A stretch of DNA of 64,000 nt, from positions 251,906,001 through 251,970,000 of the forward strand of contig NC_091470.1 of assembly GCF_036971445.1 (NCBI RefSeq), written 5' to 3'. The translations under genes and the position numbers were made by a program. Within the stretch, counting starts at the first letter, position 1; each line of letters starts with the position of its first letter. This DNA is from Narcine bancroftii. Its lineage: Eukaryota. Below are positions 59,339 through 62,300 of this stretch, piece after piece. Below the pieces are notes generated by a model. It saw only the letters and a list, made by a program, of their open reading frames with translations, was not told the origin of the DNA and did not search any database.

Positions 59339-59371
59339 ATGTCGATACTGGGAAAAATGAGCGACTGGCAG
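59339..59371 (+). CDS. tfap2a: Transcription factor AP-2 alpha, alternative first coding exon 1c (11 codons); the rest of the gene lies right of the window
   Basis: ATG TCG ATA CTG GGA AAA ATG AGC GAC TGG CAG|GTATGT = MSILGKMSDWQ, 9/11 identical to the human TFAP2A isoform 1c N-terminus MSILAKMGDWQ as I recall it. A strong phase-0 donor falls exactly after Q, and the exon sits in a TE-poor, CpG-retaining domain. Confidence 0.82.
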
Positions 59372-62300
59372 GTATGTCGAGAATTATTAAAGACATGGCT
59401 TCAACATTACAACCTACAGGCTGCTAGCATTTCGCTAGCTTCTGAAAGTTACTCGTTAAGAAGTAACGTGAATAAATACAAGCACTGGGACGAAGAATTG
59501 GGAATTTGAAGTACTAAAGTCCGAGCTTTCCACAAATATTTACCTGGTGTAACAATGTTGTAAGTAGTTTGCGATTGAATAAAATAAGGATTTATTTTTC
59601 CGACCAGCTCTAGTCAATTTTAAAAAAAAACCCACCAGTTCCAAATACATGATTAGATGGTTTTTTTTTTTGCTATGGACTGTGCAAAAACTTGTTTCAG
59701 CAATATGTCTTCAGCCCTTTTACCTTTGTCTCCTATGTTTTGCATTGAATTTGTAGTCAATTTGCTGTCGAAACAGCTTTCCTGATTTGTAATTAAAAAT
59801 ACACCATTGCGGGCATGGTCATATTACTTGGAGCAAATTACTCTAACAGTTCATCTCAGATTTGTGTGATATTGCATAGAACAATGTTATTATTGTTGCT
59901 GAATTTGAACATGTTTAACACGTTGAATAAAAAAAGTACAAAGTTATTATTCTACATTTTTATTCTTAATCATTATATAATTAGCCAAACTGGTTGCAAT
60001 ATACGTAATTAATTTAAAGCTTAATTGCAAAATCTACTTGGTAATCAATTACATTAGCACGGACAGTAAAGCATCACGTCAAATATTTGATGGTTTAAAA
60101 CTTTGAATAAGACACCAATTACAGATTAATAAAAATTTGTATGAACGAAATTCTGCAGACGCTATGATTGTAGTAAAAACGCAAAAATGCTGGAAGAACT
60201 TAACAGGTCTCGCAGCGTCCAGAGGAGTTACACCCTACATCAGGTTATTAATCTTACAGGTCAACATTTGCCCGGAATTTAAAGATTAGAGTCAAATAGT
60301 ATGTAGGTGATTCTAGTCTTGTTTTGTAACGAAGCGTTGAGTGCACATATCTGCAAGAATCTCAAATCTGTTTAAAAGTTGAGATTACGTGAAGTAAGTT
60401 TTAAACTTCGCAATAATTAATCACTTTATTTCTGGGACGGGATGAGAGGTGGCACTATCGTGCAACTTGTGTAAATATTTAAGAAATTAAAAAGAGATAG
60501 TCTGTCACCCAAAAAAAAGGAAACCTCAATTCAAAACGTTTGAGAGATGCTGATTGTTAACATAGGCCCTTAGAGTCTATTGAAATATGTCTTTCCATGG
60601 ACTAAACATTTTGGTTTCAAAGATGATGTATTAGAACGTTGTCATATATCTATCAATGGTGTATTTAATATTGTCACTGGGAAACTAAAAAAAAACCCAA
60701 AATGACCAAAACGCATGCTCAGTTTAAACCAGGTGGTTCTCAGGTTTAAACCGTGTCAGCTGATAAATGGACATTCAAAATTCCCTCCATTCTGTGCATC
60801 ATTAGAATTTGTGTTTTAGGTCTCATAGGTATGATTTATCTTTGGAATGGTTAATGATAAATGCAGCAGGTGCACAGAAAAATTAAACTCTACTCGTCAT
60901 GATTGCATTCGGTGAACTGAAAGCAAGAAAGTTTATTTAGATTCTTGCAGTTAATCTCAGTCCACCAAGATTTTAACCGAAAATATGATGCGAATTTCTC
61001 ATCCATCCAACCCCACCCCACCCCCGAAAATTGTTTTTTTTTTTCCCGAGGGACTTTCTTATGGCCAGATTTATATTTAATTAAAATGACAGTAAATTGG
61101 AGACGTTGGCGGAGCTTACAAGATATTTCCGAATTGTTTTATTCTCAAATGCTTTCATAAAAACGAGAACACTACTTCAAACTCTTCAGTCGTGATTATT
61201 TCTTCTTAGTAGTTACATAGCATGTAATTATTAATTGCATTTTGAAGCATCAGCTGACGCCTCATTTTATGAAAAACAATCTGAAATGGCTATTTGCACG
61301 AAATTCTCAACGAGCCTTCGAGTGAAGGAATGGATAGTGAAAGATTCAAACTCCTTCAGAACAAACGAATACCATGCAGAATTATATAGTCCTGCGTATT
61401 ATTTAAGCAAAAGTAACACGAATCACATCATTATACATTCTTTACATTAACCCGGCGTTGTTACAGATAACATTGGAGCGCCTTATAGTGCCTTGAACCT
61501 TGATTATATCCAAGTGTTATTAGTTTTAATTCAGGGATTGGACATTTTGGGGATTGCTTCCCTTCCACCTGATGCAACTGAAAATGTAAAATACTGTGAT
61601 GCAAAAGAACAGGTCCTGAATATATTCTTTACGGCTGAATGTGAGCAGGTAAAAAAGAACTTTCTGAAACTAGGTGGTATTGTTTGTAAGTGTCTTCTGC
61701 GAAATGAACGCATTAAGAAAAGACATGCAGTAGGTAAACACTTGTTTATGAACGCATTGTATTAGCTTGATAGACAAGAGGTTTAAAATATCTTTAGGTT
61801 CAAGGAAAATATTTTTTTTACCTCGCTTAAGATGCAATGTTCACTCTCATTCGCTCAAGATGAAGGTAGGAATTATTTTTTTCATCGGGTATCAAAGTAT
61901 TCGGTGATTTGGAGCGAGGTATGCTGAAGCCGTTGATATTTCGGGTCTTCTAATTAAAGATAATAGGTCTTGATGACATCTTTATCCCGGAGCTCCACCA
62001 AAAATGGTAATGAAGATTAATTAAAGTCGACGCCTATATCTGGCCACACAGATTACCTGTGTTGAGTCTAAACTTTACACCTTGGAAGAAAGACCGTGCG
62101 TCTCAATTCATAATTCAAAGTCAATTAGCTATTTATTATGATAACAACTTCCAGGTAAAAGCCAGCGAACCGATTTGGAAGACGGCGCTGGTTCGAAATA
62201 GTTTGCTTTTAAGTCGTTGTTTATCCGTGGTCTTAAATAGCTACATAACAACCTGATTTCCACATCAATTGGTGGTAAACCCACACTTTACTCGCTTGTT

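What the first reader, a model, noticed from the sequence alone, without database searches (positions are those of the whole stretch)
59339..59377. Hidden 33-nt first exon identifies tfap2a isoform 1c
Seen: an ATG, 11 codons (MSILGKMSDWQ) and a CAG|GTATGT donor, buried inside a spurious 66-aa ORF. Known: TFAP2A uses alternative first exons (1a MLWKL.., 1b MLVHS.., 1c MSILAKMGDWQ), with 1c the most upstream. Inferred: this isoform is conserved in this probably chondrichthyan genome, and exons 1a, 1b and 2 lie just past the window end. It would explain the sudden loss of transposons in the last 10 kb.
Basis: partly seen in the sequence, partly recalled or inferred. Interest (0 to 1): 0.7.

Follow-up and report, generated by a model that had tools for sequence, protein, structure and literature searches.

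The report
Ancient tfap2a first exon, tfap2c twin
These 33 letters match a known alternative start (1c) of the developmental gene tfap2a in a ray-like fish and are likely spliced onto the rest of the gene; a look-alike sits in the sister gene tfap2c, so this start is likely older than the duplication that split the two genes.

Summary
Confirmed: 59339-59371 encodes MSILGKMSDWQ followed by CAG|GTATGT, and its pattern occurs once in the 3.3-Gb genome. A seven-exon tfap2a lies downstream. Joining the exon to exons 2-7 gives an open 433-aa protein, the length of 1c models already in public databases for sharks and rays. The exon is therefore known; splicing in this genome was not shown by reads.

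Corrections: exon 1a lies inside the window (63303-63353). The 33 nt are only the coding part of the exon. The repeat-poor, CpG-rich zone covers the whole gene (about 54.5-82 kb), not this exon alone.

None was found upstream of the three other paralogues. The 2011 isoform paper found no alternative 5' variants for AP-2gamma. So 1c likely predates the alpha/gamma duplication. A fourth exon in the '1d' position, described as primate-only, is also present, and the otherwise invariant Gly8 of 1c is Ser here.

The parts
59339..59371 (+). coding part of tfap2a alternative first exon 1c (11 codons, phase 0); the 5' end of the exon was not mapped
   Evidence: 10 of 11 residues equal to the shark/ray 1c peptide
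59372..59377 (+). 5' splice donor GTATGT after CAG
59214..59226 (+). 13-nt motif also found 74-86 nt upstream of the tfap2c 1c-like ATG; candidate promoter or 5'UTR element
   Evidence: 0 of 400 random genomic 200-mers and 0 of 400 shuffles share so long a word, 0 copies in 530 kb; noticed after the fact
58877..58883 (+). only TATA-like word within 640 nt upstream, 462 nt before the ATG; use as a promoter untested
59309..59509 (+). 66-aa TTG-started ORF that reads through the donor into the intron; likely spurious
63303..63353 (+). coding part of first exon 1a (two in-frame ATGs at 63303 and 63309, IKYE SUMO motif), donor GAG|GTAAGA
   Evidence: same peptide in shark/ray models
54540..64000 (.). 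window part of a repeat-poor, CpG-rich domain that runs on to about 17.9 kb past the window end. The rest of the gene lies past the end (window numbering continued): 1d-position exon 64526-64687, 1b 65335-65361, exons 2-7 from 65587 to 75552
   Evidence: CpG observed/expected 0.69 against 0.32 upstream and 0.33 downstream; exons:
60128..60230 (.). short interspersed-repeat remnant in the 1c-1a interval

Best explanation
59339-59371 is the coding end of tfap2a first exon 1c, which is likely transcribed from its own upstream promoter and likely spliced to exon 2 to give a predicted 433-aa AP-2alpha that lacks the SUMO site of isoform 1a. Shown: the sequence, the donor, the phase match, the open joined frame, the gene identity and the exon order 1c-1a-(1d position)-1b-2. 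Inferred: transcription, use of this junction in this animal, and activator behaviour (carried over from human cell assays in PMC3219183, where only 1a among 1a/1b/1c was sumoylated and repressed the cyclin D3 reporter). A twin exon in tfap2c indicates that the choice between a SUMO-bearing 1a start and a SUMO-free 1c start likely existed before alpha and gamma split.
For: Single genome match of the pattern. Exons 2-7 all have AG acceptors and open frames; joined lengths are 433/439/476/431 aa for 1c/1a/1d-position/1b, with no internal stop; 433, 439 and 476 equal lengths of shark/ray models. The shared body is 96.2-99.3% identical to 10 of 10 chondrichthyan AP-2alpha proteins tested, 86.5% to 2 bony-vertebrate ones and 71.1% to a shark AP-2gamma. 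6 chondrichthyan AP-2alpha proteins carry MSILGKMGDWQ directly before the exon-2 peptide. The human 1c antibody peptide in PMC3219183 has the same form. Twin: MSLMGKVGSWQ then GTAAGA at G000:C15:40874518 (minus strand), score 43.7 against a background maximum of 22.2, 6.3 kb upstream of that gene's 1a-type exon. That locus groups with shark AP-2gamma (98/96) inside the gamma clade (95/95), and 2 of 6 members of the shark gamma cluster begin with a 1c-type peptide.
Against: No transcript evidence from this genome. Position 8 is Ser, whereas 43 of 43 1c-type peptides have Gly, which could mean relaxed selection or an assembly error. The TATA box that PMC3219183 reports 237 nt upstream of the ATG is not at that distance here. 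Six upstream ATGs lie within 460 nt. The shark/ray 1c proteins are computed models whose read support I could not see. Alpha as one clade has weak support (69/82), and the tree does not resolve whether alpha and gamma are sisters.
Confidence: 0.93

Rival explanations
1. The exon is a true 1c descendant but is decaying or silent in this lineage.
For: Gly8 to Ser at a site invariant in 43 of 43 peptides; no TATA-like word at the published distance.
Against: 10 of 11 residues, both ATGs, the Lys and a near-consensus donor are intact; the surrounding DNA keeps high CpG content; exon 1b also carries an unusual change (Thr at position 8), so small changes are not special to 1c.
Confidence: 0.04
2. 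1c is used, but mainly spliced onto exon 1b as an internal cassette (1c-1b-2, 442 aa by arithmetic) rather than straight to exon 2.
For: The 1b ATG is directly preceded by a pyrimidine tract and CAG, and several database models join 1a or the 1d-position exon to 1b.
Against: All 43 1c-type proteins counted go straight to the exon-2 peptide; the pattern allowed a 1c-1b form and counted none.
Confidence: 0.02
3. The match is chance: an intergenic ORF fragment upstream of tfap2a.
For: Only 33 nt; tblastn alone gives E = 0.52 within the five loci.
Against: One match in 3.33 Gb for both patterns, a profile score twice the background maximum, and the right strand, order and phase.
Confidence: 0.005
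4. For the twin only: the tfap2c look-alike arose by later gene conversion or convergence, not by inheritance through the duplication.
For: Seen only in cartilaginous fishes here. None of the bony-vertebrate AP-2gamma N-termini printed is 1c-like, though that sample is small and skewed to odd models.
Against: DNA identity is only 30 of 39 letters, the genes lie on different contigs, the exon holds the same place relative to 1a in both genes, and two sharks and this ray-like genome share it.
Confidence: 0.1

Closest known systems
TFAP2A (AP-2alpha) isoform 1c of human, Xenopus tropicalis and Danio rerio (PMC3219183)
   Same: short first-exon peptide of the same form, two in-frame Met, conserved Lys, no IKYE SUMO motif, joined to the DRHDG exon
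   Different: Ser instead of Gly at position 8; Gly at position 5 as in sharks and several teleosts; no TATA-like word 237 nt upstream; expression and activity not tested here
Database models of shark and ray AP-2alpha with the 1c start (e.g. XP_072906961.1, XP_051879654.1, XP_041046490.1)
   Same: 10 of 11 residues; 433 aa; body 98-99% identical
   Different: Gly8 to Ser; the models are computed annotations, not studied isoforms
Shark AP-2gamma models XP_078411629.1 and XP_041061311.1
   Same: an 11-residue 1c-type start on the gamma paralogue, as found at this genome's tfap2c locus
   Different: second Met replaced (Ile in the sharks, Val here); PMC3219183 reports finding no alternative 5' variants for AP-2gamma
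Human TFAP2A isoform 1d (PMC3219183)
   Same: a longer first exon between 1a and 1b, in frame with exon 2 (54 codons here, 60 in human)
   Different: sequence likeness to the placental 60-residue form is not significant (52-408 of 500 shuffles reach it); clear likeness only to ray, shark, coelacanth, frog and loach forms (0 of 500 each)

Membership tests
AP-2 (TFAP2) transcription factor gene | TF_AP-2 (PF03299) DNA-binding and dimerisation domain in downstream exons | tested here: met
   exons 4, 6 and 7 each pass the Pfam cut-off; exon 2 has no Pfam match
AP-2 (TFAP2) transcription factor gene | seven-exon layout with an open reading frame | tested here: met
TFAP2A orthologue | closest to AP-2alpha, not beta or gamma; other paralogues lie elsewhere in the genome | tested here: met
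   four other AP-2 loci on C15 and C17
TFAP2A exon 1c | 11-codon peptide of the MS-x-x-x-K-M-G-D-W-Q form with a phase-0 donor | tested here: met
   10 of 11 to the shark/ray form; Gly8 is Ser
TFAP2A exon 1c | lies upstream of exons 1a and 1b on the gene's strand | tested here: met
   3,964 nt upstream of 1a; the human order is recalled, since the paper's figure is not held
TFAP2A exon 1c | conserved TATA box 237 bp upstream of the ATG (figure legend of PMC3219183; a promoter trait, not part of the exon's definition) | tested here: not met
   only TATA-like word at -462, with a CT repeat of about 70 nt in between; this lowers the claim of an unchanged promoter, not the exon's identity
TFAP2A exon 1c | transcribed and spliced to exon 2 | tested here: inconclusive
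   only three small contig sets were on offer and none is on record as RNA
TFAP2A exon 1c | product activates and is not sumoylated at the N-terminus | not testable with these tools
   the IKYE motif is absent from 1c and present in 1a; activity rests on PMC3219183
TFAP2A exon 1d | located between 1a and 1b, long in-frame N-terminus | tested here: met
   64526-64687 in continued window numbering, 54 codons
TFAP2A exon 1d | sequence homology to the primate 60-residue form | tested here: inconclusive
   direct scores not significant; chain through turtle and koala weak at the last link (16-19 of 500, and 164 of 500 for turtle against chimpanzee)

The most novel reading that the evidence does not exclude
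The 1c start is older than vertebrates. One ancestral AP-2 gene already chose among several first exons, 1c survived in both tfap2a and tfap2c of cartilaginous fishes, and the oyster isoform that begins MS-F-L-A and ends W-Q before its exon-2-like peptide (5 of 15 listed oyster-cluster proteins) is the same exon. Its score of 27.2 was not reached by any of 549 genomic or 1,042 protein background 13-mers, but the best background score was close (25.3) and a free 2-residue insertion was allowed. The milder form, that 1c predates the alpha/gamma duplication and so an ancestral SUMO on/off switch by first-exon choice, I put at about 0.85.
Probability: 0.25. Interest if true: 0.55.

Novelty: new member of a known kind. 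Interest (0 to 1): 0.3.

Why it matters
The exon itself is ordinary: it extends a known isoform to one more cartilaginous fish. The tfap2c twin matters more. TFAP2A and TFAP2C are core neural-crest and ectoderm regulators (background knowledge), and the 2011 isoform study found no alternative 5' variants for AP-2gamma, named 1b as the likely oldest isoform and called 1d primate-only. A 1c exon in both paralogues would date that exon, and plausibly a SUMO-free versus SUMO-bearing choice of start, to before the alpha/gamma duplication. It would also mean that tfap2c studies in fishes that use only the 1a-type start may miss an isoform.

Tried and rejected
RNA evidence: no RNA holder was listed. 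Three contig sets laid on 57000-64000 gave no cover of 1c or 1a and no joint from 59371; this is no evidence either way.

A search with the 1d-position N-terminus found 0 of 25 candidates at E <= 10, likely because only cluster representatives are searched. Among 148 representatives from the 50%-identity library, none showed a 1c-like start by two motif searches; many are odd or partial models. The looser 1c DNA pattern missed the tfap2c twin, which only the profile scan found.

No 1c-like exon was found in 54 kb upstream of exon 2 of the beta-type locus or in 41 kb for the delta- and epsilon-type loci (best upstream scores 11.7-13.8; one search covers the rest). The delta and epsilon labels rest on recalled motifs and on the paper's remarks, not on the tree. 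Pfam on 7 of the 10 long stop-to-stop frames of the window gave no family above its cut-off, so the upstream repeats were not classified and no neighbouring gene was identified. PMC6795873 was irrelevant (its alternative first exon concerns a Hox gene). Earlier scan notes held nothing. An amphibian origin, considered because of the large contigs, was rejected.

Full report
Observation. The window holds ATG at 59339, eleven codons reading MSILGKMSDWQ, and GTATGT at 59372-59377. The 66-aa ORF is 59309-59509 from a TTG; from the ATG it is 56 aa and runs into intron. The window is G000:C5:251906001-251970000 in a genome of 3.33 Gb. A strict and a looser degenerate pattern for the peptide plus donor each matched once in the genome, at this site, with no match for the reversed control. 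A profile built from 13 distinct AP-2alpha 1c peptides scores the site 47.3; the best of 53,546 background sites scores 22.2.

Gene anatomy. I fetched 80 kb downstream. In window numbering continued past 64000, the order is: 1c (59339-59371), 1a (63303-63353, inside the window), a 54-codon exon in the 1d position (64526-64687), 1b (65335-65361), then exons 2-7 (65587-66018, 68402-68453, 70417-70648, 71309-71427, 73716-73857, 75261-75552 with the stop). All six downstream exons have AG acceptors; the exon 3 donor is GC, the other internal donors GT. The four starts give open frames of 433, 439, 476 and 431 aa. Exons 4, 6 and 7 match Pfam TF_AP-2 above its cut-off.

Identity. Exon 2 found 439 proteins at E <= 1e-20, of which 120 were listed; the six best are shark and ray AP-2alpha entries at 93-97%. 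The joined body is 96.2-99.3% identical to the 10 chondrichthyan AP-2alpha proteins tested, 86.5% to coelacanth and sheep, and 71.1% to a shark AP-2gamma. A tree of 26 rows (23 chosen from the named proteins held, plus three loci of G000, exon 3 left out for those) places the window's gene with three ray and skate proteins (84/87); alpha as one group has weak support (69/82). One named ray protein listed (P0143) was left out of the identity table and the tree. Four other AP-2 loci lie on C15 and C17.

Is 1c known? Yes. PMC3219183 (parts 1-4 of 5 read: abstract, methods, results, discussion; figures not held; supplement not read) reports 1c in mammals, Xenopus tropicalis and Danio rerio, and gives the human peptide. 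Of 291 proteins held, 43 matched a 1c-type pattern before the exon-2 peptide: 41 alpha, 6 of them chondrichthyan with MSILGKMGDWQ, and 2 gamma. A lungfish form was missed by the pattern and printed separately. All 43, and the lungfish form, have Gly at position 8; the window has Ser. Since every Gly codon starts with G, the change also removes the +4 G of the second ATG, which would weaken that start (inference). It may be an assembly error; no DNA reads were laid.

Mechanism. Shown: sequence, donor, phase, open frame and exon order. Inferred: an upstream promoter transcribes 1c, the donor joins the exon-2 acceptor 6.2 kb away, and the protein differs from 1a only in its first residues. In human cell assays 1a was the only isoform found sumoylated, at IKYE, and it repressed the cyclin D3 reporter while 1b and 1c did not; 1b and 1c were stronger activators of ERBB2 than 1a (PMC3219183). 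The window's 1a keeps IKYE and 1c lacks it, so the same difference is likely. Against an unchanged promoter: the TATA box published at -237 is not there; the only TATA-like word is at -462, and six upstream ATGs lie within 460 nt. Splicing in this genome was not shown.

Repeat-poor zone. Against 53 stretches of 10 kb from contigs C1 and C5 of the same genome (530 kb; 7 of 60 requested stretches did not exist), repeat cover is 29% for 1-54000, 4.7% for 54001-64000, 0% for 64001-76000 and 14% beyond. The background median is 40%, and 4 of 53 stretches are as low. The zone runs from 54,540 to about 81,900 with one 103-nt remnant. It coincides with CpG observed/expected of 0.69, against 0.32 and 0.33 on either side; 7 of 53 background stretches reach 0.6. 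This fits a low-methylation regulatory domain over a whole developmental gene (inference from general knowledge; one search listed no paper on the point). Low-copy elements absent from the sample would be missed.

The twin in tfap2c. Two of six members of a shark AP-2gamma cluster begin MSLLGKIGDWQ. Scanning the four paralogous loci of G000 gave one high score: MSLMGKVGSWQ followed by GTAAGA at C15:40874518 on the minus strand (43.7). It lies 6,335 nt upstream of that gene's 1a-type exon and 9,000 nt upstream of its exon 2. The locus groups with shark gamma (98/96) within gamma (95/95). The two exons share 30 of 39 letters, and both have the same 13-nt word within 125 nt upstream of the ATG. 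That word length was reached by 0 of 400 random genomic stretches and 0 of 400 shuffles, but it was noticed after the fact. It resembles an NRF1-type site (recalled, untested). No such exon was found within 41-54 kb upstream of exon 2 of the other three loci. First exons found: alpha 1c, 1a, 1d position, 1b; gamma 1c, 1a; beta 1a, 1b; the fourth and fifth loci one 1b-type or 1b-like start each. The simplest reading is that 1c existed before alpha and gamma split. Against: I saw it on gamma only in cartilaginous fishes, and the tree does not fix the order of duplications.

Is the twin in print? PMC3219183 states that no alternative 5' variants were identified for AP-2gamma. Eight searches (listings and abstract starts only, apart from PMC3219183 and passages of PMC6795873) showed no paper on it. 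The library lacks most subscription journals, where older AP-2 isoform and evolution papers appeared (recalled), so this is weak evidence of absence. The shark gamma models are already in public databases.

The 1d-position exon. Its peptide is significantly like ray, shark, coelacanth, frog and loach N-termini (5 of 14 comparisons, each 0 of 500 shuffles) and not like the other 9, including four placental 60-residue forms (52-408 of 500). The chimpanzee and gelada forms contain the paper's 1d antibody peptide. So a long alternative N-terminus of this kind is widespread, but homology to human 1d is not shown.

Verdict. The added value is the paralogous twin, a modest and testable point on the age of AP-2 first exons. 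Interest 0.3.

Noticed in passing
G000:C15:40874486-40874518, minus strand (L082): 1c-like exon with a GT donor upstream of tfap2c; matches two shark AP-2gamma models
   Followed up: yes
L002:526-687 (64526-64687 in continued window numbering): 54-codon first-exon candidate in the 1d position with two basic clusters; donor GAG|GTGCCA; like shark, coelacanth, frog and loach models
   Followed up: partly
window 59360-59362: Ser codon at position 8 of 1c, where 43 of 43 relatives have Gly; real change or assembly error unknown
   Followed up: partly
L002:4453-4459 (68453 in continued numbering): exon 3 ends at a GC donor (AAG|GCAAGT); three paralogous loci checked have GT there
   Followed up: partly
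window 63427-63964: contigs from two runs (X1, X2; RNA is only a guess) match this intronic stretch with no differences; could be unspliced RNA, a long 5'UTR, an antisense transcript or DNA
   Followed up: no
L002:1300-1361: the 1b ATG is directly preceded by an acceptor-like pyrimidine tract and CAG; several database models use 1b as an internal exon; position 8 of 1b is Thr here and Ala in most relatives
   Followed up: partly
window 59246-59260: a three-codon upstream ORF in frame with 1c overlaps a donor-like CAG|GTGAGA; five further upstream ATGs lie within 460 nt
   Followed up: no
proteins P0470, P0476, P0478, P0479, P0482: oyster AP-2 isoform X2 begins with a 13-residue peptide weakly like 1c
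   Followed up: partly
G000:C15:199.28M and 199.41M: two AP-2 genes lie about 130 kb apart on the same strand, as recalled for the delta-beta pair
   Followed up: partly
window 32001-36000 and 16001-20000: GC-richer, partly skewed stretches with little match to the repeat sample; perhaps low-copy elements or simple repeats; unclassified
   Followed up: no
window 57684-57724: a short stretch hit by several contigs at about 90% but not by the repeat sample; possibly a small repeat remnant
   Followed up: no
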